NCBI GenBank assembly: GCA_964551375.1 | Contig: CAZKBG010000001.1 | Coordinates: forward strand, 660,001 to 692,000 | Length of the DNA: 32,000 bases | Direction of reading: 5' to 3' | Source: an uncultured archaeon | Lineage (GTDB): Archaea > Iainarchaeota > Iainarchaeia > Iainarchaeales > JAAZKV01 | Part shown: positions 12,416 through 27,879 of the stretch, one piece after another | Layout of the letters: every line of letters begins with the position of its first letter | Position numbering within the stretch: the first letter of the stretch is position 1 | Notes under the pieces: model-generated | Databases searched by the model: none | Told to the model about the DNA's origin: nothing | What the model saw: the letters and a program-made list of their open reading frames with translations, nothing else | Program-made: the position numbers and the translations under genes

Positions 12416-12424
12416 TATTTCACC

Positions 12425-12607
12425 TTAAACGTAGCGTCCTCTGCCGGACTTATTATCCTTTTTTGACAAATCAATCATTGCATTATTCTTAGAATTTCTA
12501 TCTTTTGAAGTAATTTTCTTATCAGTTCCACATCTTTCCAAATTACGCGCATTGAGAAACTTTCTTCTAAGCTTTCTGGCTTCATTAAGCGAATTCTTTG
12601 TTTCCAT
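12425..12607 (-). CDS. Possible small basic hypothetical protein (60 aa)
   Basis: This is the ATG-initiated part (METKNSLNEARKLRRKF...) of the track ORF 12425..12679. A TATA-like TTTTAAGT lies about 24 nt upstream, and the stop is 7 nt before the Hjc start. Confidence 0.3.
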   Translation of the reverse strand: METKNSLNEARKLRRKFLNARNLERCGTDKKITSKDRNSKNNAMIDLSKKDNKSGRGRYV

Positions 12608-12644
12608 AAACAACACATATACATTTGAGTACTTAAAATCACCT

Positions 12645-12676
12645 AAAAAAAGAAAAGAAAGGGGAGGCAAGTCCCC
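12645..12676 (-). terminator. Terminator-like hairpin plus T-rich tract downstream of the 54-aa ORF
   Basis: Read on the minus strand: GGGGA-CTTGCC-TCCCC followed by TTTCTTTTCTTTTTTT. It begins 11 nt after the stop at 12688. Confidence 0.4.
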
Positions 12677-12687
12677 CAAACTTTTAA

Positions 12688-12852
12688 TTACTTTAAAGCT
12701 CTGCCAACCTTTCGAACAGAAGAAAGCTCTACGTCCTTATCCTGCAAAAGGTTAACCTTGGCATTGTAAGCCCACTTCTTGAGCTTCTTACCAATCGGAT
12801 GCCTTGAGCCATCGCCGGGGTTTGTGGTCCCCTCATAAGCAAACTTACTCAT
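12688..12852 (-). CDS. Small ORF (54 aa), hypothetical, not in the ORF track
   Basis: MSKFAYEGTTNPGDGSRHPIGKKLKKWAYNAKVNLLQDKDVELSSVRKVGRALK. A strong SD, GGAGTGAGGT, ends 7 nt before the ATG. It has its own TATA-like box upstream and its own hairpin plus T-tract downstream. Confidence 0.45.
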   Translation of the reverse strand: MSKFAYEGTTNPGDGSRHPIGKKLKKWAYNAKVNLLQDKDVELSSVRKVGRALK

Positions 12853-13021
12853 ACACACTACCTCACTCCTTTTAGGCTACAATTAGGTTTAAATTCCCTT
12901 CATTTAACTCAATTCTAGGACAAAAGACCTTAATGGTTAAGGTAATGCCCTAAAAAGGCATTTTTGAACAAAAAGCTCCTTTTGAAAAAGGAAGGCTTTT
13001 TTGGAAAGGTTTGTGTTTTGA

Positions 13022-15901: not shown

Positions 15902-15974
15902 GGGCCGGTGGTCTAGCGGTTATGACATCACCCTTACAAGGTGAGAGTCGTCGGTTCGAATCCGACTCGGCCCA
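15902..15974 (+). tRNA. tRNA-Val (anticodon UAC)
   Basis: Cloverleaf folded by hand. The acceptor is GGGCCGG/TCGGCCC, the anticodon stem TCACC/GGTGA, the loop CTTACAA, and the T-arm GTCGG-TTCGAAT-CCGAC. No encoded CCA and no intron. Confidence 0.9.
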
Positions 15975-16047
15975 CTTGATTTTTTGAAAACAAAATAAAT
16001 CTATTTTAAAACAAGCCAAAGGCAAGCCGGAAGCAATCGAGTAAGAA

Positions 16048-16076: not shown

Positions 16077-17834
16077 ATGAATAGAGTTGCTATCCTATTA
16101 GTAATACTGTTATTTGCGCTTATTGCGCCTGTTTACTCAGCTGATGAAACAATATACCCTACAACCATAGGCAAACTCAACGCTGAAGTAAGTTTATTTG
16201 GGCAGGGAAAAATCACTGGACTAGCGCCGGGAGAGGAAGCAAAGCTTGAAACAATAACATTTCAGGAAAGCGAATTTCAAAAAGTAAAAATGCTAAAAGA
16301 AGAACTAATAATAAACGGCACAATAATCCGCCCAAAATATGTGCTTGATCAATTTGGAAACAAATACGCTGTATTTATCATAAACCAAAACGGGGATTTT
16401 AATTACGAACTAAGGGCAGACATAAACACAAGCGCATTTATTTTTGACATGGCTGATTATCCGCTCACAAGCGGAAACAACGCAATGCTTGAATACACTG
16501 AACAAACCGAAAAAATCGAAAGCTCCGCAACCGAAATCATGACGCTTGAAAAAAACAAAATTTACTCAAAAACATTCTTCTCTGTTTTGAACGAAACTGT
16601 GGACTGGGTAAATGACTATGTGGAATACGCAAAAGGAAATGATTTTAGATACTATTATCTCGAACAAAAATCGGCAGTGCAGACGCTCATAAGCAGAAAA
16701 GGAGTCTGCGACGAATTCACAAACCTTGCTGCATCAATTTTAAGATCAAAAAAAATACCAACAAGAGTTGCTATTGGAATAACATTTGATGGCAAAGACT
16801 GGGGAAACCACGCTTGGATGGAAGTGCACGACCAAAACATGAGCACGCGCGGAATATGGATTCCATCAGACGCAACATTTAGAGAAGCGGGATTTGTTGA
16901 CGCAACCCACATAAAAATGGGCTCATTTGACGATGTTTCAAACTCAAAAGCAAGATGCTACTATCCAATCAGCGCAACATGCAACCTTGACAACCAAAGC
17001 AGGCTTCCGCAGGTCACAATAAAAAGCAAAGAATACTTTTCAAGCGTAACGATGAGCGCAAAATCTGATAATATGAAAGCAAATAAGTGGAATGATGTTA
17101 ATGTAACTGTAAAAAATATCAGCAACGGAACAATAGCAGTCCCTGTGACAATAAAAGAAAACTATAACGAACTCATGATACAGGAAAAGAAAAAATCTGT
17201 TGTTTTAAAAGCAGGAGAAGAACAAGTAGTAACATTCAAAGTATTCCCAAAAATTGATTTACGAAACGATGAATATGCAAACGGAACACTAACATTCTCT
17301 TCGCTATCGGCACCTCTTGAAAAAGACATTGTAGTTTATCCAGGGAGTTACTCTGAAACAGACGGGGAAGTAATTGTTGAAGATGTAACCCCTATTGCGC
17401 ACGAAGGAACGCTAAAATTTGTGATAAAAATATCAAACTTTTACCAGGCCGACCAAGAAGCAAAGATATCCATAACCGCAAACGGCGTAAATGAACTTGC
17501 AAGCGAAATAATACCCGCAATGGGGACAAAAGTTATTACAAAAGAATTCGACCAGTACCAAATACAAGTTTACACAATCTCAATTGATGTTCCTGGAAAA
17601 ATATACACTCAAAAAGTTATTCCAATCAAAACCAAAATCATACTCCCTGACGACACTGAAAAACCGACTGTGATTGAAAAAATAGTCACCACAAGCGGAG
17701 ATGGAAACTCAGGAGTAATCGCTGACGAGGGCAGCAATCCGATACCATTCTTTGCAATGGTAATAATAGTAATGCTCCTTGCAGTTGCAATAGTGCTTGC
17801 AATATTATCATTCACCACAAGAAGATACGTATAA
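16077..17834 (+). CDS. Secreted, C-terminally membrane-anchored transglutaminase-like (Cys-His-Asp core) protein
   Basis: The N-terminal signal is MNRVAILLVILLFALIAPVYSA. The core is RKGVCDEFTNLAASILRSKKIPTRVAIG...GNHAWMEV...IPSDAT. The C-terminal TM is FFAMVIIVMLLAVAIVLAILSF, followed by TTRRYV. Confidence 0.8.
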   Translation: MNRVAILLVILLFALIAPVYSADETIYPTTIGKLNAEVSLFGQGKITGLAPGEEAKLETITFQESEFQKVKMLKEELIINGTIIRPKYVLDQFGNKYAVFIINQNGDFNYELRADINTSAFIFDMADYPLTSGNNAMLEYTEQTEKIESSATEIMTLEKNKIYSKTFFSVLNETVDWVNDYVEYAKGNDFRYYYLEQKSAVQTLISRKGVCDEFTNLAASILRSKKIPTRVAIGITFDGKDWGNHAWMEVHDQNMSTRGIWIPSDATFREAGFVDATHIKMGSFDDVSNSKARCYYPISATCNLDNQSRLPQVTIKSKEYFSSVTMSAKSDNMKANKWNDVNVTVKNISNGTIAVPVTIKENYNELMIQEKKKSVVLKAGEEQVVTFKVFPKIDLRNDEYANGTLTFSSLSAPLEKDIVVYPGSYSETDGEVIVEDVTPIAHEGTLKFVIKISNFYQADQEAKISITANGVNELASEIIPAMGTKVITKEFDQYQIQVYTISIDVPGKIYTQKVIPIKTKIILPDDTEKPTVIEKIVTTSGDGNSGVIADEGSNPIPFFAMVIIVMLLAVAIVLAILSFTTRRYV

Positions 17835-17900: not shown

Positions 17901-17972
17901 GCGATCGTTGTCTAGTGGTTATGATTCGTCCTTGCCAAGGACGGGGCCCGGGTTCAATTCCCGGCGGTCGCA
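17901..17972 (+). tRNA. tRNA-Gly (anticodon GCC)
   Basis: The acceptor is GCGATCG/CGGTCGC (one G-U pair), the anticodon stem CGTCC/GGACG, the loop TTGCCAA, and the T-loop region GGTTCAATTCC. Confidence 0.9.
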
Positions 17973-18099
17973 CTTATTTTTTTAAAACAAAAAGAACTCT
18001 TTTAGCAGGGGATAACTATCACAAGAAGGTTAAAAAAAGTTAATTAATAAAAGTCATTTGAAGAAATTAGTTTAGTTATCTTATTTTATTATTTTATTT

Positions 18100-19035
18100 T
18101 TATCTTCTTGATTTCTTCTTAACTTTCTTCTTTGCAAGAGGCCTTCTTACCACAACTGCCTTGTGGCTTCCTTTCATTGCCCTGTTTGCAAGGATGCGCC
18201 TTATCTGAGAGGATGCTTCTGCGTGAGAATGCAGTTGAGTAAAAGCTTCAGCAACCATATAGTGATATGCAATCAATGCAACCCCTAAACCAAATGCCGG
18301 AGAAACTGAAAATGCAAGGCTGAAAGCAACTGGGTTAATCAAAAAGAACTGAAGTATTACCGCCGCAAGCCCCCCAAGAGCAATTGTCACAAAAGCAAAT
18401 ATAATAAACGCCAAAAATAGCGAAATTATTATTGCATAAAGAGTTTCATTGAATTTATTGTGAGTCAATGCCCAGGATTCCTTAATTGATTCAACTATTC
18501 CTAGAGTGGCGCTCTTCTGGATAAAAACCGAAGTCGAGAAAAACAATCTCACTGCGTTATAGACTACTAAAATAAAATAAGCAGTTCCCAAAAGCCAGAG
18601 CAAATAGCCCAATAACTCAGTTTGAACCATTGAGAAATAATACAATAACAAAACAAACGCAATCAAAAGCAAAAGCTGGGCTTTTCTAAAAAATGCGTTA
18701 ATATTCCACACTAAAACGTAGAACATTTCAACAAAAACAAGGAAAATCAAGTCAAGAACTTTTCTTGCCCCAAAATCAAAGCCCTTGCTTGACTTCTTTT
18801 CAACAAGACAATTATTCATTAAAACTATTACGCCAAGAACAAGAGTCACATAAAGCAAATCGTACAAAACTATCGCAACTGGTCTTGTAACATTTGAGAA
18901 AATAAGCCCTTTTTCAAATGCCTGCGGAAGAATAACAATACAGGGAAGAGAAATCCAGAAGAATATGATAAACCAAATAACTTTATTTAAAGAAACCCAT
19001 GAATACGCAGAGCTTACTACTCTTGAAAAATCCAT
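18100..19035 (-). CDS. Polytopic integral membrane protein, hypothetical (about 7-8 TM segments, basic C-terminal tail)
   Basis: Hydrophobic segments about 20 aa long recur throughout. The C-terminus is RRPLAKKKVKKKSRR. No family motif recognised. Confidence 0.6.
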   Translation of the reverse strand: MDFSRVVSSAYSWVSLNKVIWFIIFFWISLPCIVILPQAFEKGLIFSNVTRPVAIVLYDLLYVTLVLGVIVLMNNCLVEKKSSKGFDFGARKVLDLIFLVFVEMFYVLVWNINAFFRKAQLLLLIAFVLLLYYFSMVQTELLGYLLWLLGTAYFILVVYNAVRLFFSTSVFIQKSATLGIVESIKESWALTHNKFNETLYAIIISLFLAFIIFAFVTIALGGLAAVILQFFLINPVAFSLAFSVSPAFGLGVALIAYHYMVAEAFTQLHSHAEASSQIRRILANRAMKGSHKAVVVRRPLAKKKVKKKSRR

Positions 19036-19078: not shown

Positions 19079-19708
19079 TTAAAACAACGCCTTGTCAACA
19101 AGCGGAAATATCTGCGAAAACACATCAGGAATGTTTTTGTTCGCGTCAATTACTGCAATATTCTCATTTGGAAGCAAAGTTGGGAGCTTTAAGAAGTATT
19201 CCCTAAGCGAAGAAATGAATTCAAGCTCTCTGAATTTATCGCTGTCCTTTCTTTTCTCGCTTTTTTCGGAATTAATTCTTCTAAAAGAGTTTTCTGGAGT
19301 CACATCAAGAATCAAGGCAAGGTCGGGAGCAAGAAAATTCATGTGCGCTGGAAAGACTTTATTAAAATCTGTGCCCTGAACTGTTTGATATGCGATGCTT
19401 GAGTACTTGTAGCGATCGCAAATCACCACAAAATTCTTCTCAAGCGAAGGCTTGATTATATTTTCAACATGCCACTCCCTGTCTTTAACAAATAATTCAA
19501 AAATTTCATCCCTAAAATCAGAAGAAGATTTTTGCTTCTTAAAATACTCCCTTAATTTCTGCCCGTATGGACCATTTGTCGGCTCATCAGTAACCAAAAT
19601 GTTGTCATACTTCTTGCTTTTCCCATAAATATGCTCAAAAGTTTTCTTTATCATCGTCCCTTTCCCGCACCCAGGCAAACCGTCAAATACAATAAAAGTC
19701 CCAGCCAT
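19079..19708 (-). CDS. Thymidylate kinase-like nucleoside monophosphate kinase (divergent paralog)
   Basis: The P-loop is FIVFDGLPGCGKGT, with TDEPTNGPYG and the DRYKYSSIAYQ (DRY..S..AYQ) signature. Confidence 0.7.
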   Translation of the reverse strand: MAGTFIVFDGLPGCGKGTMIKKTFEHIYGKSKKYDNILVTDEPTNGPYGQKLREYFKKQKSSSDFRDEIFELFVKDREWHVENIIKPSLEKNFVVICDRYKYSSIAYQTVQGTDFNKVFPAHMNFLAPDLALILDVTPENSFRRINSEKSEKRKDSDKFRELEFISSLREYFLKLPTLLPNENIAVIDANKNIPDVFSQIFPLVDKALF

Positions 19709-19712
19709 GATT

Positions 19713-20408
19713 TCACCTAAAAAATTTCTTTAAAGTTCTTCCCTCATTTAAACAAGCGCTGACTTCCTTCCAAACTTTCCCGCTAATTGCTTCAATTGGA
19801 AGCAGGTTTTTGCCGTCAGTGCAATCAACTCTAACCCATCCAAGCCTTTTAATATTTCGCTCATACTCATTACGCACAAGCTGTTGAAAATTCAAATCCT
19901 CTTCGTGCTGGTCGCGCTTCTTTCCGCGCTTATACCCTTCAGCTCGGTTTGCGTTATCCATAAACTTATGAGAAACCGCAATCGGGACGTCAAGAACAAT
20001 AACCAAATCAGGCTGGGGAAGACGGGAAGTCACAAGCCTTATCCACTCCCAAAGAGAATCCTTATTTTTCTTCTCAAGCGCAACCTGATAATTTAGCGTT
20101 GAGGAAAAAAATCTGCTTAATACAATATCCTTTCCTTCATCAAGAGCTTTTTCAATATGCAGCTTTGATTCGTAAAAATCAGTAATATACAAAAGCGCAA
20201 TAAATTCGGGAGAAAGAACATCCTTTGAGCCAAGCTCCCCCCTTAGATACGCGTCAACAACTTTCCCAAACTGATTGTCATGCTTTGGGAAATGCAAATG
20301 CTCAAGCTTTCTTCCCATGCTTTCCATTTTTTTGCAAACCAAATCAAGCTGGGTTTTCTTGCCAGTGCCGTCAGCGCCTTCAATTACAATTAACTTTCCC
20401 CTGCCCAT
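19713..20408 (-). CDS. tmk: Thymidylate kinase (dTMP kinase)
   Basis: The P-loop is LIVIEGADGTGKKTQ, with the LSRFFSSTLNYQ region and a lid-like basic segment EGYKRGKKRD. Its stop is 4 nt from the start of the next paralog. Confidence 0.75.
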   Translation of the reverse strand: MGRGKLIVIEGADGTGKKTQLDLVCKKMESMGRKLEHLHFPKHDNQFGKVVDAYLRGELGSKDVLSPEFIALLYITDFYESKLHIEKALDEGKDIVLSRFFSSTLNYQVALEKKNKDSLWEWIRLVTSRLPQPDLVIVLDVPIAVSHKFMDNANRAEGYKRGKKRDQHEEDLNFQQLVRNEYERNIKRLGWVRVDCTDGKNLLPIEAISGKVWKEVSACLNEGRTLKKFFR

Positions 20409-20755: not shown

Positions 20756-21088
20756 ATGGCGATAAAAATGGAAAAAGAAAAAAAACTCAAAGGAAGCCAA
20801 AAAATTGCGCTTGAAAGAATATATCGGCTTATTGAACTCGCTCGAAAAAATGAAAAATACTCCAAGAGATATGTCAGTATTGCAAAAGAAATCAGCAAAA
20901 AGATGAGAGTTCAGGTGCCAAAAGAGCTCAAAAAACAATACTGCAAAAAATGCTGTTCAATGAAAGTCAAAATTTCGACCAAAGAACCATTCCTGATTGT
21001 AAAATGCGAAGAATGCGGATTTGAAAAGAAATACGGGACAAAAAACAAGCCAAAAATAAAACCTACCCGCCCAGCGAAAGGCAAATAA
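20756..21088 (+). CDS. rnp4: RNase P protein component 4 (Rpp21/Rpr2 family)
   Basis: An N-terminal helical region (ALERIYRLIELARKN...YSKRYVSIAKEISKKMRV) is followed by a zinc ribbon, YCKKCCS...VKCEECG. Confidence 0.75.
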   Translation: MAIKMEKEKKLKGSQKIALERIYRLIELARKNEKYSKRYVSIAKEISKKMRVQVPKELKKQYCKKCCSMKVKISTKEPFLIVKCEECGFEKKYGTKNKPKIKPTRPAKGK

Positions 21089-21134: not shown

Positions 21135-24100
21135 ATGAAAATAAAGGGACAGGGATCTATTGAAAATCTATTAATCATAAGCGCGGCGATTGTGGTTGTC
21201 GCAATAGTAATAGTAGCCGTTTATGGAATAATGACGCAAGGAAATGAAAGCGTAATAAGCGGAGAAGAAATAAACACCGGAACTACAGGAACTTTAAGAG
21301 AATTACAGGGAGTTGAAATACAAACAATTATTGTCCCTGACGGAACAAGCGCAACAATAGAAATAAAGCCAAGCGCGACTGATGATAAACTAAAAAACAT
21401 GTTCAAAGGAGCTCCAAACGGAACAGGCTTCACAGTAAACAACGGACCAAACAGCGGAAGCACATGCCAAAGAACAGCAACAGGATGGGTTGACGCCAAC
21501 GGAAACGGATGCAACACACCAATAACAAGCGGAACTTTACTAACAATCTCAAACTCAAGCGGAGGCGGAGGAACTTACACTGAAAGCATAAGAGGAGTGG
21601 GGACAACTGGAGGACAGGGACAAACTGTAACACAAACTATATCGCCAGGAACACCAACACCTATCACATTAACATTCACGCCAAACCAATTGATAACTGA
21701 TTTATTCACAAGCCTGCCGAGCGGAACAACAATTGCAATCGGAACTGACGGAACTATACTAACAAGAACTACAGATGGCTGGATTTTAACACTGCCAAAC
21801 GGAACAACAGTTACCGACACAAATGTAATAAATTCACTAATACCACTTTCAAACGGAACAGTACTCAATATTACAACACCAGCAGGATCAACAACAGTAA
21901 CACTAAGCATTGTGGAAGGAACACCACCAACAGTAGTACTGCCTACACCAATACAACTATCAACATGCGCTGATTTGCAGAATATACAAAACAATTTAGT
22001 GGGAAATTATGAACTTGCAAGCAACATTGACTGCTCAACACTAGAAGAATTCACACCAATAACAGATTTTAGAGGAACATTAAACGGAAAGGGACATAAA
22101 ATTTCAAACTTGTCCGTTTACTCAAGCAGCGGACAGCCGACTGGACTATTTTCCACAACAAACGGCGCAACAATAAAAAAATTATCAATAGAAGGCGCTG
22201 AAATAATCGGACTTCAATCAACAGGAATACTTGTTGGAAACATGGGCGGAGGGATAATTACTGAAGTTCACACACAAGGAAATGTGCAGGGAACAGATTA
22301 CGTTGGAGGAATAGTTGGAAGAACAATGGGTGGACAAATAACAAACTCCTACTCCACATCATCAACAGCAAATGAAGAAAGAATCCGCGCAACAGGAAAC
22401 TATGCGGGCGGAATAACAGGAAGCCTTGTTGGAGGAGGAAGCATAAATTCAGTATACTCTGAAGCAACAGTAGAAGCGCAAAATTACACAGGAGGAATTG
22501 TAGGAGAATTTATTGAAGCGCAAATGGCAAACGCATACTTCTCAGGCACAATAACCTCATCCCCTACATCAAAAATAGGCGGAGTAATCGGAAAAATGAA
22601 CAGCACATTTGGAGAATCAAACCTTTCATGGATGCTTTACCCTGACAACTGCGCAGGAGAAATATCATATAGAGAGCCAGGAAGCTGCGAGAAAAAATAC
22701 AACGAAGAAGACTTTATGGACCAAACATACGAGCCTATGGCATCATTCACTGGCGGATTTGGAACAGGCAAAGCATGGAGCATATGCCAATACGAAGACC
22801 AGCCGTGGCTGACATTTGAAAACAAAACATGCACTCCTCCGCAAATATATGCGGATGTAATCAACATCACTGGAGCCGGAACAATATACATACAACTTCA
22901 TGTGGCTCCAATAAACAATACACTAACAACGCTATTTGGAAGCATTGGAAACGGCGGACAAGTGAGAAAACTTGGAGACTCAACAGTGTTCACAAATAAC
23001 AGCGGGACATGGACAGCAAGCGGAGGAACAACAACCCCTGCACAATTAACTATAAACACAAATGATAAATTTGCGGTAACAAGCACTATGCCAAATATAT
23101 TCCAAGTAAATTCATACCAAACAACACCGCCATTTGTAACACAAATAACTGACACAACACCGCCGACAATAAAATCAATTAGTCTTCAAGGCTGCGGAGG
23201 AATAAAAGTTCCAAACACAGACACATACTCAAGATTTGACTACAATGTGCTAATAGAAACTACAGACACACAAACAGAAGTAGCAAGCTGCACAATAGAA
23301 AGCTATTTTAGAATACCGGGAACTATGACATGGCTTAAAGCAAACACAAAATCAATTGCAAATCCATTCATTATGCCTGATGTAAACTATATCCACGGAA
23401 ACCAAGTAATGACTTCTTCACCATACCCAACAAGCCTTGACACAAGATACACTGTAACATGCAAAGACATAATTGGAAACACAACAACAATGATTACAAC
23501 ACCAACAATGACATGCCCAATTCCTGCAGCGCCTCAACTAATATCATTGCCTGCGGGAAAAATAACAGCAGTAAAAATGAACGACACAGCTATTGACGAT
23601 CCAGCAAGCGCTTCGCCAATTCCGCCAAGGATTATCCAAATGTTTGGAACCCCATCAAACGGAACAACTGTTAGAAAAATGGGAAAAGCGGTAACTTACA
23701 CATGGAATAACGGATGGAGCGCAAGCAGCGGAAGCCACAATGATTTTAATGCAACAAACGGAGACACAATAATAATATCAACTCCGGCAGGAACGCCGAA
23801 TCAAATGGCAATATTTGCAAGGACAAGCCTGCCGTACGCAACAATTGTGAACGACACAACAGGACCGACTGTAACGAATGTACTCTCAAGCTGTTATCCA
23901 AAATCAGTGGCATTCATGGGGCCATACGCAAGAGACATAAACTTTGCAATAACTGCAAACGACACACAGCTCGAAACAAAGAACTGCTCACTTGTGATAA
24001 ACAAAACAGCACCTGCGCCGGCAATGACTTTCAATGCGACTACCGGAACAAATTATCTCCAGACAGGAAATTTTGTGCACACAATGACAATATCACAAAT

Positions 24101-24206
24101 GGCTGATTTAACAACACCAGTAACAGTAAACGGAACTATCACCTGCCAAGACTCACTTGGAAATATCGGCCCAATGAACACAATCGGGATATATAATTGT
24201 CCATAA
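21135..24206 (+). CDS. Giant class III signal peptide (type IV pilin-like) surface protein with a GLUG-type beta-helix insertion and repeated modules (1023 aa)
   Basis: The N-terminus is MKIKG|QGSIENLLIISAAIVVVAIVIVAVYGI (QxSxE motif plus hydrophobic helix). I prefer ATG 21135, with GAGGTG about 9 nt upstream, over GTG 21123. The protein is T/N/G-rich, and I counted more than 20 N-x-S/T sequons by eye. Confidence 0.8.
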   Translation: MKIKGQGSIENLLIISAAIVVVAIVIVAVYGIMTQGNESVISGEEINTGTTGTLRELQGVEIQTIIVPDGTSATIEIKPSATDDKLKNMFKGAPNGTGFTVNNGPNSGSTCQRTATGWVDANGNGCNTPITSGTLLTISNSSGGGGTYTESIRGVGTTGGQGQTVTQTISPGTPTPITLTFTPNQLITDLFTSLPSGTTIAIGTDGTILTRTTDGWILTLPNGTTVTDTNVINSLIPLSNGTVLNITTPAGSTTVTLSIVEGTPPTVVLPTPIQLSTCADLQNIQNNLVGNYELASNIDCSTLEEFTPITDFRGTLNGKGHKISNLSVYSSSGQPTGLFSTTNGATIKKLSIEGAEIIGLQSTGILVGNMGGGIITEVHTQGNVQGTDYVGGIVGRTMGGQITNSYSTSSTANEERIRATGNYAGGITGSLVGGGSINSVYSEATVEAQNYTGGIVGEFIEAQMANAYFSGTITSSPTSKIGGVIGKMNSTFGESNLSWMLYPDNCAGEISYREPGSCEKKYNEEDFMDQTYEPMASFTGGFGTGKAWSICQYEDQPWLTFENKTCTPPQIYADVINITGAGTIYIQLHVAPINNTLTTLFGSIGNGGQVRKLGDSTVFTNNSGTWTASGGTTTPAQLTINTNDKFAVTSTMPNIFQVNSYQTTPPFVTQITDTTPPTIKSISLQGCGGIKVPNTDTYSRFDYNVLIETTDTQTEVASCTIESYFRIPGTMTWLKANTKSIANPFIMPDVNYIHGNQVMTSSPYPTSLDTRYTVTCKDIIGNTTTMITTPTMTCPIPAAPQLISLPAGKITAVKMNDTAIDDPASASPIPPRIIQMFGTPSNGTTVRKMGKAVTYTWNNGWSASSGSHNDFNATNGDTIIISTPAGTPNQMAIFARTSLPYATIVNDTTGPTVTNVLSSCYPKSVAFMGPYARDINFAITANDTQLETKNCSLVINKTAPAPAMTFNATTGTNYLQTGNFVHTMTISQMADLTTPVTVNGTITCQDSLGNIGPMNTIGIYNCP
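21364..21536. repeat. Copy 1 of a 173-nt block identical to 24538..24710
   Basis: Base-by-base comparison: TAAAGCCAAGCGCGACTGATGATAAAC...CAATAACAAGCGGAACT is identical in both genes, while the flanks are clearly diverged. Confidence 0.9.
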
Positions 24207-24217
24207 ATTTAACAAAA

Positions 24218-24250
24218 GCAACAGGAGAAATCCTGTTGCCCTGTTTTTTT
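24218..24250 (+). terminator. Terminator-like hairpin plus T7 after the first pilin-like gene
   Basis: GCAACAGGA-GAAA-TCCTGTTGC is a 9-bp perfect stem, followed by CCTGTTTTTTT. Confidence 0.55.
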
Positions 24251-24272
24251 AAGAATTCACATTTAGGTTAGG

Positions 24273-24280
24273 TATAAATA
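24273..24280 (+). promoter_or_regulatory. TATA box of the second pilin-like gene
   Basis: GGTATAAATACC. The TATA ends 22 nt before ATG 24303, ACTAATTA lies at 24293-24300, and there is no SD, which suggests a leaderless mRNA. Confidence 0.5.
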
Positions 24281-24302
24281 CCAAAAAGCACAACTAATTA
24301 TC

Positions 24303-25787
24303 ATGCAAAACATAAAAAAAGCTCAAGGCTCGCTTGAAAACTTATTAATCATAAGCGCGGCAATCATAGTTGTAGCAGTTGTAATAATTGCAGTTTATGG
24401 AATAATGACGCAGGGAAATGAAAGCGTAATAAGCGGAGAAGATATTAAGACAGGAACTACTGGAACGCTAAGAGAAATGCAGGGAGTTGAAATACAAACA
24501 GTGGATGTTCCTGCAGACAGCCAGGTTACAATTACAGTAAAGCCAAGCGCGACTGATGATAAACTAAAAAACATGTTCAAAGGAGCTCCAAACGGAACAG
24601 GCTTCACAGTAAACAACGGACCAAACAGCGGAAGCACATGCCAAAGAACAGCAACAGGATGGGTTGACGCCAACGGAAACGGATGCAACACACCAATAAC
24701 AAGCGGAACTAATGTAACAATTTCAACAAGCGGAGGAAGCTCATATCATGAAGAAATAAGAGGAGTAGGAACAGGAGGAACAACAACAGGAACATTCTCG
24801 CAAGCAATTAGCCCAGGAACTCCAACTACTATTACAGCACCATTTAATTCAAACGCATATTTTACAGATGTATTTTCTGCAATGCCGATTGGAACAATAA
24901 TCACTGTGGGAACATCAAGACTGACAAGAACAGCAACAGGATGGGTTTTGACTTTACAGGACGGAACAATAATAACTGATCCTTACCAAATCAATCAATT
25001 AATCCCTGTTACAAGCGGAACTGTATTCATAATTACTTCACCTACTCAAACAACAATTACTTTAACAGAAGGAACTCCTCCAGCGCCAGTAACTGACTCA
25101 ATCGCACTTGCAGCAGGAGAAACAATTGCGCTGAAAATAAACGCAAACCTTGACAATAATACATTAAACGGATTATTTCCATCAATGGCAGCAAATTCAA
25201 CAGTAAGAAAAGTTGGAACAAACAGCACGTTCACTTACAACGGAACTGCTTGGAGCTCAAGCGGAGGAACAACACCCGCACAATTTAGCGCAAACCTAAA
25301 TGACACTTTAATAATAAAAAGCACTGGCGCATTCACAATAAACGCAAGAAGCTTCACTGCGCAGGCACCGCTTGTAACAAAAATAATTGACACAACTGGA
25401 CCGACAATCAACAGCATATATGCATACTGCCGACTAATAGGAAGTGGATACAGCGTCAGCAGAGCTGTTAGATTCACAATAAACGGAACGGATGATCAGC
25501 TTGAGTCAATATACTGCAGACTGGACATAACATACACCCGAACACTAAACCAAGGACCGACAACTGCAACAATTGACGACTACACATACCCACACACTTA
25601 TACTAGAACTGCGGACATGCAAAGAGACCACGTACTACACTCATGGACAAGCAGCTACAGCCCGGTTGTTTACAACGACATAAACTTTACATGCTTTGAC
25701 TCGCTCGGAAACGCAAGCGCAAAAGCAAATTTTAAAAACTTCCGGTGTGAACCAGAAAACATGCTCCCTGGACAGAGACTAAAATAA
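24303..25787 (+). CDS. Class III signal peptide (type IV pilin-like) surface protein, paralog of 21135..24206 (494 aa)
   Basis: The N-terminus is MQNIKKA|QGSLENLLIISAAIIVVAVVIIAVYGI. The first ~270 aa are collinear with the larger paralog, and the C-terminal DTTGPT...C...C.D.LGN...C.P module is shared. Confidence 0.8.
   Translation: MQNIKKAQGSLENLLIISAAIIVVAVVIIAVYGIMTQGNESVISGEDIKTGTTGTLREMQGVEIQTVDVPADSQVTITVKPSATDDKLKNMFKGAPNGTGFTVNNGPNSGSTCQRTATGWVDANGNGCNTPITSGTNVTISTSGGSSYHEEIRGVGTGGTTTGTFSQAISPGTPTTITAPFNSNAYFTDVFSAMPIGTIITVGTSRLTRTATGWVLTLQDGTIITDPYQINQLIPVTSGTVFIITSPTQTTITLTEGTPPAPVTDSIALAAGETIALKINANLDNNTLNGLFPSMAANSTVRKVGTNSTFTYNGTAWSSSGGTTPAQFSANLNDTLIIKSTGAFTINARSFTAQAPLVTKIIDTTGPTINSIYAYCRLIGSGYSVSRAVRFTINGTDDQLESIYCRLDITYTRTLNQGPTTATIDDYTYPHTYTRTADMQRDHVLHSWTSSYSPVVYNDINFTCFDSLGNASAKANFKNFRCEPENMLPGQRLK
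24538..24710. repeat. Copy 2 of the 173-nt block identical to 21364..21536
   Basis: See copy 1. It encodes KPSATDDKLKNMFKGAPNGTGFTVNNGPNSGSTCQRTATGWVDANGNGCNTPITSGT in both proteins. Confidence 0.9.
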
Positions 25788-25836
25788 GGTTTTTAATAAA
25801 CACAAAAAAAAACCTTCTTTAAACTACAAAGCAAAG

Positions 25837-25844
25837 TATAAATA
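25837..25844 (+). promoter_or_regulatory. TATA box of the third pilin-like gene
   Basis: AGTATAAATACT has the same GTATAAATAC core as at 24272. ACTAATTA lies at 25852-25859. The TATA ends 21 nt before ATG 25866 and 27 nt before ATG 25872. Confidence 0.5.
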
Positions 25845-25865
25845 CTTACAAACTAATTAATTTTC

Positions 25866-27164
25866 ATGCTTATGCAAAACAAAGGACAGGGTGTCCAAAG
25901 CGGACAAGCCCCAAATAGGGGACAGGGGGCAATTGAATACTTACTAATCATCGGCGCAGCGATACTTGTAATTGCTATTGTAATAATTGCAATAAGCGGA
26001 GCGCTTGGAACAGGAACTAATCAAAGCGCAGGCGCAAAAGGAAATCAAATGGGGGCGTTTGTAAACTTAAGACAAATGAACCTAACCCCCCAATTTTTCA
26101 GATTGCCTTCAGTGTCCCTTGGACCAGGACAGCAAATAATATTTAATTACACTGACCCAGCAACTGGGCAAACTACACAAACACCAATTACAAATCAAGC
26201 ACAACTAAACCAGGCATTAATGAATGGAGACTTAAACCTATACCTAACCCCGCCAGGGGTTTCAGCCACTCCTGGAATGAGCACAAGTTACATATTATCG
26301 ACTCCTCAAACAAATAAACCAAAAAATCTGCTGAAAATAATTGGTTGCATGAAAAATAGCCCTTATTCACAAACCCCTTCTGGAACAGCTGGATTTCTAA
26401 TCGGAGACGAAGCAGGAAGCAGAATACAAGACCAGGCAATAATGGCTGATTTAAATAACCGCCCAGTAAAACTTATTTCAATTACAGGATACGGCGGAAG
26501 CAATTACTCAAACGCAGTTGACAAGACATACAAATTACGACTTTCCCAACCATTCTACTATTATTCTATGCCAGGCTATTTTGTATACCTCGCAACTTTT
26601 GAAGGACTGACTGATAATTCAGGAAACCCGATAAATCAAACAGCAATAAACAGCATTTGCAATAGCAGCACAGGATATTCAGTAGGAAATGCCAACGTAA
26701 GATCAGAATTCAACGGGTGGTCATTTTACAACTATGATTATGATATTATATATGGAAACAATCCCGGACTTGCAGAAATAGCAATAGCATATAATGGAAC
26801 AAACACAACAATAATCGGGAGAGACAATAAAGGAAATCTGCTCACTGACACAGTAACAGCATATCTGCCATGCACTGAAACACAGTGGCTGCCGATTGCT
26901 GGATATACTGGAAACCAGCAAATATACAAAAGATGCTGCGATTATGCTAACTGCTGTTCAAGGACATCACTAGGAATATTAACAAGCACAAACTGCACAA
27001 TAGATACAGTAACCCACTGTCAGTCATTTACCTGCGAGCCAACAACATGCACTCTTGGAACAAGAAAAGTAACAAGTTACTATGACACAAATATATTCAC
27101 CTGCTTAAACCAACCAACCCAAATAGCAAACATGTATGTTGAAGCAATCATAAGCGCGCCATAA
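25866..27164 (+). CDS. Class III signal peptide (type IV pilin-like) surface protein with a Cys-rich C-terminal region (432 aa, or 430 from ATG 25872)
   Basis: ...NKGQGVQSGQAPNRG|QGAIEYLLIIGAAILVIAIVIIAISGA. The rest is unrelated to the two upstream paralogs. There are 10 Cys in the last ~100 aa. Confidence 0.8.
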   Translation: MLMQNKGQGVQSGQAPNRGQGAIEYLLIIGAAILVIAIVIIAISGALGTGTNQSAGAKGNQMGAFVNLRQMNLTPQFFRLPSVSLGPGQQIIFNYTDPATGQTTQTPITNQAQLNQALMNGDLNLYLTPPGVSATPGMSTSYILSTPQTNKPKNLLKIIGCMKNSPYSQTPSGTAGFLIGDEAGSRIQDQAIMADLNNRPVKLISITGYGGSNYSNAVDKTYKLRLSQPFYYYSMPGYFVYLATFEGLTDNSGNPINQTAINSICNSSTGYSVGNANVRSEFNGWSFYNYDYDIIYGNNPGLAEIAIAYNGTNTTIIGRDNKGNLLTDTVTAYLPCTETQWLPIAGYTGNQQIYKRCCDYANCCSRTSLGILTSTNCTIDTVTHCQSFTCEPTTCTLGTRKVTSYYDTNIFTCLNQPTQIANMYVEAIISAP

Positions 27165-27294: not shown

Positions 27295-27879
27295 ATGGGA
27301 ATACATGACGTTCCGGCAGAGTACTTAATTGAGGAAACTGCGGGAAAACTAATAGGCGAAATACAAAAGCCTGAATGGACAGACTATGTAAAAACAGGAA
27401 TGCACGTTGAACGAGCTCCACAAAGAGAAGACTGGTTCTACATGAGAATGGCAAGCATTCTTTATAGAGCGTTCAAATGGGGAACTATTGGAACAGAAGC
27501 CCTAAGAACATATTACGGCGGAAGAAGAAACCGAGGCGTAAAGAAAGAGCACCATTACAAAGCAAGCGGAAAAGTAATCCGAACATGCGTGCAAGCGCTT
27601 GAAAAAGCAGGCTACTTAGAAAGAGCACAGCCAAGCGGAAGAAAAATTACTACAAAAGGATTCAGATTATTAAACGACACTGCTAAGGTTGCAGAGAAGA
27701 ACTGGAAAGAAGGAAAATACGAACACAAAGAAAAAGCAACAAAAGCATTCGATGAAAAGAAGAAGAAAGAAGTGCAAGACACACTAAGAAGACAGGATCA
27801 CGGCGGGCACAAAGCATCTGCTGAATCAAAAGACAAGAAACAGTCGCAGAAATCTCCAAAGAAAAAGGACGGTGAATAA
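27295..27879 (+). CDS. rps19e: Ribosomal protein eS19 (S19e) with a K-rich C-terminal extension
   Basis: DVPAEYLIEETAGKL...PEWTDYVKTGMHVERAPQREDWFYMRMASILYRAF...GRKITTKGFRLLN. Confidence 0.9.
   Translation: MGIHDVPAEYLIEETAGKLIGEIQKPEWTDYVKTGMHVERAPQREDWFYMRMASILYRAFKWGTIGTEALRTYYGGRRNRGVKKEHHYKASGKVIRTCVQALEKAGYLERAQPSGRKITTKGFRLLNDTAKVAEKNWKEGKYEHKEKATKAFDEKKKKEVQDTLRRQDHGGHKASAESKDKKQSQKSPKKKDGE

What the first reader, a model, noticed from the sequence alone, without database searches (positions are those of the whole stretch)
21135..27164. Cluster of three very large class-III-signal (prepilin-type) surface proteins with no pilus assembly genes nearby
All three consecutive genes begin with a short charged leader, then Q-x-S/A-x-E, then a hydrophobic helix of about 20 aa:
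- MKIKG|QGSIENLLIISAAIVVVAIV
- MQNIKKA|QGSLENLLIISAAIIVVAVV
- ...NRG|QGAIEYLLIIGAAILVIAIV
This is the archaeal class III signal (Pfam Class_IIIsignal/DUF361, motif QXSXEXXXL). In that family Q is the +1 residue left after cleavage by an A24 prepilin peptidase of the EppA/PibD type. Characterised archaeal pilins are small, whereas these are 1023, 494 and 432 aa. They are T/N/G-rich and carry many N-x-S/T sequons, more than 20 by eye in the largest. Each gene has its own TATA box and hairpin. No A24 peptidase, PilB/FlaI-type ATPase or PilC/FlaJ-type platform gene lies in the 32 kb window. My inference is that these are pilus-displayed or pilus-tip adhesins of an uncharacterised kind, possibly for cell-cell or host attachment in a small-genome archaeon.
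Basis: partly seen in the sequence, partly recalled or inferred. Interest (0 to 1): 0.85.

Follow-up and report, generated by a model that had tools for sequence, protein, structure and literature searches.

The report
Cargo-bearing pilin-like surface proteins, archaeal
Three neighbouring genes of a small-genome archaeon encode large surface proteins that start with the same cleavable "pilin handle" as the short pilus subunits of a close relative, so they are probably adhesion domains displayed by a type IV pilus system whose peptidases and one ATPase lie just outside the window.

Summary
Three consecutive + strand genes (1023, 494 and 432 aa) each begin with a short basic leader, then Q at +1, E at +5 and a hydrophobic helix. 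All three are T/N/G-rich and sequon-rich, and each has an even number of cysteines.

"No assembly genes nearby" holds only inside the 32 kb window. The same 946-kb contig carries:
- an A24 peptidase 9.9 kb downstream;
- a FlaI/CpaF-type ATPase about 27 kb upstream;
- a locus 36-42 kb upstream with a second, archaeal-type A24 peptidase, two short Q+1/E+5 pilins and a four-gene pilin-like operon ending in a LamG protein.

A relative's copy of that locus also holds an ATPase, two platform genes and 94/107-aa pilins. The helix of the 94-aa pilin matches P3's at 23 of 25 residues.

P1 and P2 are paralogues built from an undescribed ~85-aa beta module. P1 adds a GLUG beta-helix with no protease motif. 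P3 is unrelated to them beyond the signal.

The gap between the Rpp21 and S19e genes holds 0-3 different class III genes in five related genomes.

Best reading: archaeal counterparts of bacterial "modular pilins". Display on a filament is inferred, not shown. This is a new variant of a known kind, of moderate interest.

The parts
20756..21088 (+). RNase P Rpp21/Rpr2 gene; conserved left border of the variable slot
   Evidence: PF04032, 31.8 bits. It sits directly upstream of the slot in L004, L005 and L006.
21135..24206 (+). P1, 1023 aa: class III signal, two beta modules, a GLUG beta-helix, then two copies of a unit made of one beta module plus one beta-sandwich
   Evidence: The ortholog in L003 is 65% identical, with dN/dS 0.34.
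21135..21224 (+). P1 leader MKIKG (aa 1-5) and mature N-terminal helix QGSIENLLIISAAIVVVAIVIVAVY (aa 6-30)
   Evidence: PF04021, 18.9 bits, below the gathering score. 72% identical to the family consensus helix.
21306..21914 (+). P1 beta modules 1 and 2 (aa 58-143 and 165-260), carrying the L..lF..aP.GT / t..GW / Gd.i.I..P motif
   Evidence: Module alignment A1. 69% identical to the same region of P2.
21942..22829 (+). P1 GLUG / Peptidase_M26_N-like beta-helix region (aa 270-565), with no HExxH motif
   Evidence: PF05342 27.6 bits (gathering score 27.7) and PF07581. N-terminal domain of IgA1 protease, PDB 6XJA/6XJB, E 3.5e-7. About 160 database hits cover only this 20% of P1. No HExxH.
22833..24203 (+). 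P1 C-terminal units A (aa 567-794) and B (aa 795-1023), each one beta module plus one Cys-paired beta-sandwich
   Evidence: Both align to P2 aa 258-482 at 30-32% identity. Cysteine spacing.
24218..24249 (+). Terminator-like hairpin GCAACAGGAGAAATCCTGTTGC followed by a T-run, after P1
24272..24281 (+). TATA-like GTATAAATAC, 30 nt before the P2 ATG
   Evidence: TATAAATA occurs only twice on the + strand of the window.
24303..25787 (+). P2, 494 aa: class III signal, three beta modules and a C-terminal beta-sandwich
   Evidence: AlphaFold model with pLDDT 70.5: helix 5-37, then all-beta. An exhaustive HMMER search finds only P1 as a strong relative. The L003 ortholog is 73% identical, dN/dS 0.21.
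21354..21552 (+). Gene-conversion tract shared with P2 (24528-24726): 95% nucleotide identity inside flanks of 82%
   Evidence: Module-1 identity between the two paralogues (84.5%) exceeds identity to their orthologs (75-77%).
25836..25845 (+). TATA-like GTATAAATAC, 29 nt before the P3 ATG
25866..27164 (+). P3, 432 aa: 19-aa leader, consensus helix QGAIEYLLIIGAAILVIAIVIIAIS, an unknown ectodomain and a Cys-rich C-terminus (11 of its 12 Cys lie in aa 265-413)
   Evidence: PF04021 25.4 bits, above the gathering score. One full-length homolog, P0122, 29% identity over 98% of P3. Its helix matches a relative's 94-aa pilin at 23 of 25 residues. The structure model failed.
27295..27879 (+). Ribosomal protein S19e gene; conserved right border of the variable slot
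   Evidence: PF01090. 68-92% identical in L003-L006.

Best explanation
P1, P2 and P3 are cargo-bearing, or modular, type IV pilin-like proteins of an Epd/Tad-like type IV filament system in a small-genome archaeon that is probably DPANN.

Proposed mechanism:
1. Each protein enters the membrane through its N-terminal hydrophobic helix.
2. One of the genome's two A24 aspartyl peptidases removes the basic leader after G/A, leaving Q at +1 and E at +5.
3. The freed helix is the same 'handle' carried by the short pilins of the system. It lets the filament ATPase and platform machinery extract the protein and place it in, or at the tip of, a pilus.
4. A polar linker then holds out a string of disulfide-bonded, probably glycosylated beta domains. 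P1 also holds out a GLUG beta-helix. These act as binding modules for a host cell or a surface.

The genes sit in a fast-changing slot between the Rpp21 and S19e genes, and each has its own promoter, so the displayed repertoire can change without touching the machinery.

Shown: the signal motifs, the domain make-up, the presence of the peptidases, one ATPase and small pilins in the same genome, the identity of the handle with a relative's short pilins, and the variability of the slot.

Inferred: cleavage, incorporation into a filament, position in the filament, glycosylation and ligand.
For: - Class III motifs are present in all three proteins. PF04021 scores 25.4, 20.1 and 18.9 bits, and the leaders end K/R-G/A before Q+1 and E+5. 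Methanococcus maripaludis pilins processed by EppA show the same features (PMC3875500).
- The same 946,135-bp contig carries the following:
  - Peptidase_A24, 269 aa, 50.7 bits, 9.9 kb downstream of P3.
  - A T2SSE ATPase, 129 bits, whose best PDB matches are archaeal GspE2 (3e-70), CpaF (4e-54) and FlaI (5e-49).
  - Peptidase_A24 with Arc_PepC and Arc_PepC_II, 370 aa, followed directly by 150-aa and 106-aa Q+1/E+5 pilins, then a four-gene pilin-like operon ending in a LamG protein.
- Relative L016, whose peptidase is 67% identical, has the same gene order. Upstream it adds T2SSE, two T2SSF genes and 94-aa and 107-aa class III pilins.
- P3's mature helix matches the 94-aa pilin at 23 of 25 residues.
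- The 25-aa mature N-terminus averages 84% pairwise identity across 49 otherwise unrelated proteins of 62-1296 aa, and E5 is invariant.
- The ectodomains look extracellular: all-beta P2 model, even Cys counts, and 4-5 times the sequon density of cytoplasmic neighbours.
- These are real genes under purifying selection: dN/dS 0.34 and 0.21 against L003.
- The concept is established for bacteria: modular pilins with vWA or ConA-like lectin modules, modelled at the pilus tip (PMC8179133).
Against: - There is no experimental evidence of cleavage, expression or filament association.
- P1 and P2 score below the PF04021 gathering score. Their helix differs from the consensus (68-72% identity; Y6 is N).
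- No T2SSF platform gene was seen in the roughly 61 kb of this genome that could be read. Its presence is inferred from synteny with L016.
- The ATPase near the window is only 44% identical to the ATPase in the L016 locus, so it may be a paralogue with another role.
- The P2 model shows no canonical pilin globular module packed on the helix; the helix and the linker have pLDDT below 55.
- Proteins of 430-1020 aa are sterically awkward inside a filament.
- The helix-identity figure is inflated, because the set was collected through N-terminal similarity.
Confidence: 0.6

Rival explanations
1. Membrane-anchored surface coat or adhesin proteins. The class III signal is cleaved, or not, and the hydrophobic helix simply remains in the membrane as an anchor. 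The proteins stand on the cell surface as stalks, or form short bindosome-like stubs, without entering a pilus.
For: - The genes are separate from the pilin and assembly loci and have their own promoters.
- Large size and many domains.
- No canonical pilin globular module appears in the P2 model.
- Sulfolobus class III sugar-binding proteins are likewise large and encoded away from the machinery (bioRxiv 10.64898/2026.04.22.720090).
Against: - A plain anchor would not need an invariant E5 or a near-invariant 25-aa helix shared with short pilins encoded inside a filament locus.
- The same genome uses ordinary Sec-type signals for other secreted proteins, so the class III signal looks specifically chosen.
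Confidence: 0.27
2. Secreted or surface enzymes. P1 would be an M26-type (IgA1-protease-like) metalloprotease or another hydrolase, exported by a type II secretion-like use of the pilin signal.
For: PF05342 Peptidase_M26_N and NCBIfam ZmpA/ZmpC hits on P1 aa 283-489. IgA1 protease PDB matches at E 3.5e-7.
Against: - The match covers only the non-catalytic N-terminal beta-helix.
- No HExxH motif occurs in P1, P2 or P3.
- No catalytic Pfam domain was found at E up to 1.
- NCBIfam scores of 26-29 bits lie far below the 3000-bit cut-offs.
- The hydrophobic helix stays on the mature protein, so release as a soluble enzyme is unlikely.
Confidence: 0.04
3. Recently acquired foreign (viral or mobile-element) receptor-binding genes inserted next to a tRNA and ribosomal cluster, unrelated to the host's pili.
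For: - The slot content differs between related genomes.
- GC is slightly higher (0.40-0.42 against 0.35-0.39).
- tRNA-Gly lies 180 nt upstream of the Rpp21 gene.
- The beta-sandwich strings weakly resemble phage tail proteins.
Against: - No integrase and no flanking repeats were found.
- The BFVD matches are not meaningful (TM below 0.2).
- The N-terminal handle is the lineage's own pilin helix.
- The cluster is shared with L003 at a divergence comparable to the slower-evolving flanking genes.
Confidence: 0.04

Closest known systems
Bacterial modular type IV pilins (Streptococcus sanguinis PilB with vWA and PilC with a ConA-like lectin; CofB/TcpB; more than 1200 proteins in 264 architectures; PMC8179133)
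   Same: A class III signal and hydrophobic N-terminal helix followed by grafted modules that are not pilin-specific and are predicted to bind ligands. Lectin-type (LamG / ConA-like) cargo occurs in this genome's paralogues P0125 and P0186. One bacterial database hit, P0077, combines an N_methyl pilin N-terminus with GLUG and LamG-like regions.
   Different: These proteins are archaeal. The handle is a Flp/Epd-like helix joined to the cargo by a polar linker, with no evidence of a canonical globular pilin module. They carry up to six tandem beta domains. They are encoded in a separate variable slot, not with the machinery.
Methanococcus maripaludis Epd pilins (DUF361/PF04021) with the dedicated peptidase EppA; 'system 1' archaeal type IV filaments
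   Same: The leader ends in G/A, with Q at +1 and E at +5. An A24 peptidase with Arc_PepC domains lies next to pilin genes. Two platform genes sit in the relative's locus, the stated hallmark of system 1, which is reported in some DPANN.
   Different: The characterised Epd pilins are 67-76 aa, and the 'much larger' ones are still small. P1-P3 are 432-1023 aa. P3 carries E-Y at +5/+6, the Flp-like feature that PMC3875500 says M. maripaludis pilins lack.
Class III signal proteins with LamG or other cargo in DPANN-type archaea (named by NCBI as 'class III signal peptide-containing protein' or 'LamG-like jellyroll fold domain-containing protein')
   Same: A nearly identical mature N-terminus, QGAIEYLLIIGAAILVVAIVIIAI. 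Some carry the same ~85-aa module directly after the helix. P0070, from 'Ca. ainarchaeum', combines a class III signal with GLUG repeats.
   Different: P1 and P2 have a variant helix, multiple copies of the module, and C-terminal units with no relatives below E 1e-6 among 1.84 billion representatives.
Sulfolobus bindosome-type class III signal substrate-binding proteins
   Same: Large functional proteins with class III signals, encoded away from the filament genes and thought to functionalise a type IV filament machinery.
   Different: No substrate-binding-protein domain and no neighbouring ABC transporter genes.
N-terminal beta-helix (GLUG) domain of Streptococcus pneumoniae IgA1 protease / ZmpA family
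   Same: P1 aa 283-495 aligns to it.
   Different: No catalytic M26 domain and no HExxH.

Membership tests
Pfam PF04021 Class_IIIsignal (DUF361) / archaeal prepilin-type signal | HMM score at or above the gathering score of 23.7 bits | tested here: inconclusive
   P3 scores 25.4 and passes. P2 scores 20.1 and P1 18.9, both below the cut-off but with E 6e-4 and 1.5e-3.
Pfam PF04021 Class_IIIsignal (DUF361) / archaeal prepilin-type signal | A short basic leader ending in G/A, then Q at +1, E at +5 and about 20 hydrophobic residues | tested here: met
   MKIKG|QGSIEN, MQNIKKA|QGSLEN and ...NRG|QGAIEY, each with a hydrophobic run of about 25 aa. The features match those listed in PMC3875500.
Pfam PF04021 Class_IIIsignal (DUF361) / archaeal prepilin-type signal | An A24 prepilin peptidase encoded in the same genome | tested here: met
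   Two are present: P0175 (269 aa, PF01478 50.7 bits) and P0187 (370 aa, PF01478 with Arc_PepC and Arc_PepC_II). Both lie on the 946,135-bp contig.
Pfam PF04021 Class_IIIsignal (DUF361) / archaeal prepilin-type signal | Actual cleavage before Q | not testable with these tools
   This needs N-terminal proteomics or a cleavage assay.
Type IV filament subunit (pilin in the strict sense) | Assembly ATPase and platform protein in the genome | tested here: inconclusive
   A T2SSE ATPase is present. No T2SSF gene was seen in the roughly 61 kb read. Relative L016 has T2SSE and two T2SSF genes directly upstream of the orthologous peptidase, but that stretch of this genome could not be fetched.
Type IV filament subunit (pilin in the strict sense) | Polymerisation into a filament | not testable with these tools
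   There is only indirect support: the helix is shared with short pilins of a filament locus.
Modular pilins in the sense of Raynaud et al. 2021 | A class III signal plus at least one extra domain not specific to pilus biology | tested here: met
   P1 carries GLUG / Peptidase_M26_N. P2 carries four beta domains after the helix. P3's ectodomain has no family assignment.
Modular pilins in the sense of Raynaud et al. 2021 | A canonical globular pilin module (the C-terminal half of helix alpha-1 packed on a beta-sheet) preceding the grafted module | tested here: inconclusive
   In the P2 model, helix 5-37 is followed by a low-confidence linker (aa 38-59, pLDDT below 50), then separate beta modules. 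The coordinates could not be inspected.
Flp/Tad-type pilins | G|XXXXEY processing motif | tested here: inconclusive
   P3 has G|QGAIEY. P1 and P2 have E-N instead of E-Y.
Flp/Tad-type pilins | A very small mature protein with no ectodomain | tested here: not met
   The mature proteins are about 413 to 1018 aa.
Bindosome-type class III signal substrate-binding proteins | A solute-binding-protein domain and linkage to an ABC transporter | tested here: not met
   No substrate-binding-protein family at E up to 1. No ABC transporter genes in the window.
Peptidase M26 (IgA1 protease / Zmp) | A catalytic domain with HExxH | tested here: not met
   No HExxH. Only the N-terminal region matches, at 27.6 bits against a gathering score of 27.7.

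The most novel reading that the evidence does not exclude
This DPANN-type lineage uses one nearly invariant Flp-like helix as a universal display handle. Onto it, it swaps a fast-evolving, combinatorial repertoire of binding domains: the new ~85-aa module, GLUG, LamG and Cys-rich domains. Part of this repertoire is stored in a dedicated variable slot inside the conserved Rpp21-S19e translation-gene cluster and is homogenised by gene conversion. If so, P1-P3 would be the host-specificity determinants of an episymbiont, in effect a pilus-mounted adhesin cassette system.
Probability: 0.3. Interest if true: 0.65.

Novelty: new variant of a known kind. Interest (0 to 1): 0.45.

Why it matters
How DPANN archaea recognise and hold on to their hosts is largely unknown, and pilin genes are often reported as missing from their genomes (for example PMC9563170).

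This locus shows that the pilin-type signal in such a lineage is attached mostly to large, variable ectodomains rather than to small pilins. It also supplies concrete candidates (P1-P3, with two candidate peptidases and one ATPase) for cleavage assays, host-binding assays and imaging.

Finally, it extends the bacterial modular-pilin idea to archaea, using a Flp/Epd-type handle and a previously undescribed beta module.

Tried and rejected
Searches that found nothing:
- The same alignment was too weakly conserved for a locus search.
- P3 has no relative among the GTDB species representatives; the source genome is not one of them.
- The exact-protein look-up of P1 found no contig.
- The A24 peptidase P0175 has no PDB match by sequence.
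- NCBIfam gave nothing for P2 or P3, and only far sub-threshold ZmpA/ZmpC hits for P1.
- Rfam found only three tRNAs in the window. The apparent non-coding gap at 12416-13021 holds conserved small ORFs, not an RNA.

Structure work:
- The P3 structure prediction failed (pLDDT 32, two-sequence alignment), so it was not used for fold search.
- Fold searches of the P2 model found only generic Ig, FnIII or GH2-type beta-sandwiches in PDB (best E 4e-3) and nothing meaningful in BFVD.

Limits of the genome walk:
- Walking beyond the 370-aa peptidase stopped at a contig end 29 nt upstream of the gene. The platform genes and the short QGAIEY pilins of this genome were therefore not reached.

Readings considered and rejected:
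- Protease: no HExxH motif.
- Substrate-binding protein: no such domain.
- Mobile-element cargo: no integrase or flanking repeats, and the handle is native to the lineage.
- Chance ORFs: the genes are conserved in L003 with dN/dS 0.2-0.34.

Full report
**1. What is in the sequence**

Three consecutive + strand ORFs lie at 21135-24206 (P1, 1023 aa), 24303-25787 (P2, 494 aa) and 25866-27164 (P3, 432 aa). Their N-termini are MKIKG|QGSIENLLIISAAIVVVAIV, MQNIKKA|QGSLENLLIISAAIIVVAVV and MLMQNKGQGVQSGQAPNRG|QGAIEYLLIIGAAILVIAIV. A six-frame scan for this motif finds only these three sites at the start of long ORFs in the window.

Pfam PF04021 (Class_IIIsignal) scores 25.4 bits for P3, above the gathering score of 23.7. 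P2 scores 20.1 and P1 18.9, both below it.

The proteins are T/N/G-rich. They carry 24, 11 and 9 N-x-S/T sequons, or 2.1-2.35 per 100 aa, against 0.50 in 23 other proteins of the window. Composition alone predicts 17.3, 8.1 and 6.6. Cysteine counts are 16, 6 and 12.

TATAAATA occurs only twice on the + strand of the window, 29-30 nt before the ATGs of P2 and P3. A clean hairpin with a T-run follows only P1.

The rest of the window is archaeal housekeeping: HerA/NurA, Hjc, NifS/NifU, PTH2, two thymidylate kinases, Rpp21, S19e, L31e, eIF6, prefoldin and FtsY. It contains no A24 peptidase, T2SSE or T2SSF gene.

**2. Anatomy of the proteins**

P1 and P2 are paralogues. Residues 4-268 of P1 are 69% identical to P2. 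The C-terminal unit of P2 (aa 258-482) aligns to two successive units of P1, at 567-794 and 788-1022, with 30-32% identity. P1 is thus the P2 architecture plus a central insert and an extra C-terminal unit.

The insert (aa ~270-565) is a GLUG / Peptidase_M26_N region. It aligns to the non-catalytic N-terminal beta-helix of pneumococcal IgA1 protease (PDB 6XJA/6XJB, E 3.5e-7). No HExxH motif is present.

A 199-nt tract is 95% identical between P1 and P2. In module 1 the two paralogues are more alike (84.5%) than each is to its ortholog in the closest relative (75-77%). This indicates local gene conversion.

P3 shares only the signal with P1 and P2.

**3. Relatives of the proteins**

In the 5.8-billion-protein index, P1 matches other proteins only through the GLUG region, about 20% coverage. 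An exhaustive HMMER search of 1.84 billion representatives with P2 returns only P1 as a strong hit. It also returns about a dozen marginal hits (E 3e-6 to 1e-3), nearly all of which begin with the same class III signal.

The six of those read in full share an ~85-aa module just after the helix, with motif L..lF..aP.GT, then t..GW, then Gd.i.I..P. By eye and in alignment A1 the module occurs four times in P1, three times in P2 and once in P0125. P0125 is a class III + LamG protein of the same genome, encoded next to the eIF-1A gene. No Pfam family covers the module.

P3 has one full-length homolog, P0122 (29% identity over 98% of P3). Its other hits all align through the N-terminus, and most of them go on to a LamG domain.

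The 25 residues after the cleavage site average 84% pairwise identity across 49 such proteins of 62-1296 aa. Q1, G2, E5, L7 and I10 are invariant. This figure is biased upward, because the set was collected through N-terminal similarity.

P0070, named 'Ca. ainarchaeum', joins a class III signal to GLUG repeats. A bacterial hit, P0077, joins an N_methyl pilin N-terminus to GLUG and LamG-like regions.

**4. Structure**

An AlphaFold model of P2, from a 10-row alignment, has mean pLDDT 70.5. It shows an N-terminal helix (5-37, low confidence), a disordered polar linker, three beta modules (pLDDT 75-94) and a C-terminal beta-sandwich.

Foldseek finds no specific match in PDB (best E 4e-3, generic Ig/FnIII/GH2 sandwiches) or in BFVD. 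The P3 model failed (pLDDT 32).

**5. The rest of the genome**

P1-P3 come from an NCBI contig of 946,135 bp. That contig could not be read directly. Short-read assemblies of the same organism could be chained to the window by overlaps with zero mismatches: 4111 nt, 7727 nt and 2865 nt. Every protein named below maps by exact sequence to the 946,135-bp contig.

Downstream of the cluster:
- A 269-aa Peptidase_A24 (PF01478, 50.7 bits) lies at window-equivalent 37030-37839. That is 5.0 kb past the window end and 9.9 kb after P3.
- It contains ATDAKTGYIYD and GGGD, which I read as the two catalytic-Asp motifs.
- The same gene is syntenic in two relatives.

Upstream of the cluster:
- A 509-aa T2SSE ATPase lies 6.2-7.7 kb before the window start. 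Its best solved relatives are archaeal GspE2 (3e-70), CpaF (4e-54) and FlaI (5e-49).
- At -14.7 to -17.0 kb lies a four-gene operon of pilin-like proteins, identified by their N-termini: MQKG|QLSID, MNKG|QVFSTD, MKKG|FIFSTE and MKG|FGG. The last is a 355-aa LamG protein.
- At -19.0 to -20.9 kb lies a 370-aa A24 peptidase with Arc_PepC and Arc_PepC_II domains. It is followed directly by 150-aa and 106-aa proteins with MQRG|QTVLEF and MNKKG|QTAFEAL.

No T2SSF platform gene lies in the ~61 kb that could be read.

**6. A complete filament locus in a relative**

A metagenome contig, L016, encodes a peptidase 67% identical to the 370-aa one. It has the same downstream gene order and extends further upstream. 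That upstream part holds:
- a T2SSE gene (562 aa);
- two T2SSF genes (374 and 308 aa);
- two short class III pilins (94 and 107 aa).

Two platform genes plus a dedicated peptidase is the stated signature of archaeal 'system 1' (Epd-type), which the same source reports in DPANN.

The 94-aa pilin begins MEQKA|QGAIEYLLIIGAAILVVAIVIIAIT. This is 23 of 25 residues identical to the mature N-terminus of P3.

The ATPase near the window is only 44% identical to the ATPase of the L016 locus. It may therefore be a second paralogue.

**7. A variable slot**

A search of GTDB representatives with S19e found four related genomes, with S19e 92, 78, 71 and 68% identical. Counting the window, five genomes can be compared. 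The Rpp21-S19e gap holds:

| Genome | Class III genes in the gap |
|---|---|
| Window | P1, P2, P3 |
| L003 | 3: orthologs of P1 (65%) and P2 (73%), and a strongly diverged, split P3-like gene (~34%) |
| L004 | 0 |
| L005 | 1: an unrelated 437-aa gene |
| L006 | 3: genes of 344, 284 and 88 aa |

Sources. The flanking genes stay collinear in all five. Against L003, dN/dS is 0.34 for P1 and 0.21 for P2, compared with 0.06-0.17 for five neighbouring housekeeping genes. These are real genes that evolve faster than their neighbours.

**8. Interpretation**

The most economical reading is that P1-P3 are cargo-bearing pilin-like proteins of an Epd/Tad-like type IV filament system. One of the two A24 peptidases would cut the leader after G/A. 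The remaining helix is shared with the short pilins and carries the invariant E5. It would serve as the handle by which the machinery places the protein in or on a filament. The beta-domain string, with the GLUG beta-helix in P1, would serve as a binding surface.

This parallels bacterial modular pilins, in which vWA or ConA-like lectin modules are grafted on a pilin and are modelled at the pilus tip (PMC8179133). It also parallels archaeal class III binding proteins and large adhesin-like proteins (PMC4858521; bioRxiv 10.64898/2026.04.22.720090).

Stand-alone pilin genes away from the machinery are normal in archaea.

The main rival is that the helix acts only as a membrane anchor for a surface coat, with no filament. 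The conserved handle argues against this, but nothing here excludes it.

Protease, substrate-binding and mobile-element readings each fail a defining test.

**9. Verdict**

The claim of isolation from assembly genes is an effect of the window edge, and large class III proteins are not a new kind.

The following appear not to have been described:
- the ~85-aa module;
- the P1/P2 architecture;
- a Flp-like handle joined to cargo of up to 1000 aa;
- the Rpp21-S19e variable slot.

I rate it a new variant of a known kind, interest 0.45.

Noticed in passing
window 25866-25922; also P0122, P0132, P0134, P0145 and L005:4601-4700: Many proteins of this family have a half-duplicated leader. A first K-[GA]-Q-[GA] site lies 9-20 aa upstream of the real G/A|QGAIEY site, for example P3 MLMQNKGQGVQSGQAPNRG|QGAIEY and L005 ..KNAGQGAEPFWKKASGKKA|QGAIEY. 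Whether this is a second cleavage site or a remnant is unknown.
   Followed up: no
window 21354-21552 and 24528-24726: A 199-nt tract is 95% identical between P1 and P2, inside flanks of 82% identity. In module 1 the paralogues are closer to each other than to their orthologs in L003, which suggests local gene conversion.
   Followed up: yes
L016:5040-16877 (JGI Ga0247841_10002981); window-equivalent about -21 to -14.7 kb in this genome (L012, L011): A TctA-family polytopic membrane protein (378 aa here) and a Prok-JAB protein sit inside the pilin locus in both genomes, between the peptidase/short pilins and the four-gene pilin-like operon. Their role in the system is unexplained.
   Followed up: partly
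L006:5056-5322: An 88-aa class III protein (PF04021, 27.1 bits) lies in the Rpp21-S19e slot of a relative. The slot can therefore also hold short, major-pilin-sized genes.
   Followed up: partly
L002:4845-6158 (same organism): A fourth large class III protein of this genome (P0125, 437 aa: consensus helix, one ~85-aa module and a LamG domain) is also embedded among translation genes, next to the eIF-1A and eIF-2 beta genes.
   Followed up: partly
window 19079-20408 (- strand): Two tandem, diverged thymidylate kinase paralogues (209 and 231 aa), conserved as a pair in L004-L006.
   Followed up: no
window 18100-19035 (- strand): A 311-aa polytopic membrane protein with a basic C-terminal tail has no Pfam or NCBIfam family. 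It is conserved at 43-47% identity in L004 and L005.
   Followed up: no
window 16077-17834, flanked by tRNA-Val (15902-15975) and tRNA-Gly (17901-17973): A 585-aa transglutaminase-like protein. The L004 homolog starts with what looks like a Sec-type signal, so it is probably another surface or secreted protein.
   Followed up: no
window 12416-13021: This stretch has no ORF of 100 aa or more, but it holds small ORFs on the - strand, one of which (56 aa) is conserved in L004. No Rfam match was found.
   Followed up: partly
L003:4627-5792: The P3-like gene of the closest relative is split into two ORFs (198 and 255 aa) and is only about 34% identical to P3, while the flanking genes are 70-92% identical. 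This could be a frameshift, a pseudogene or an assembly error.
   Followed up: no
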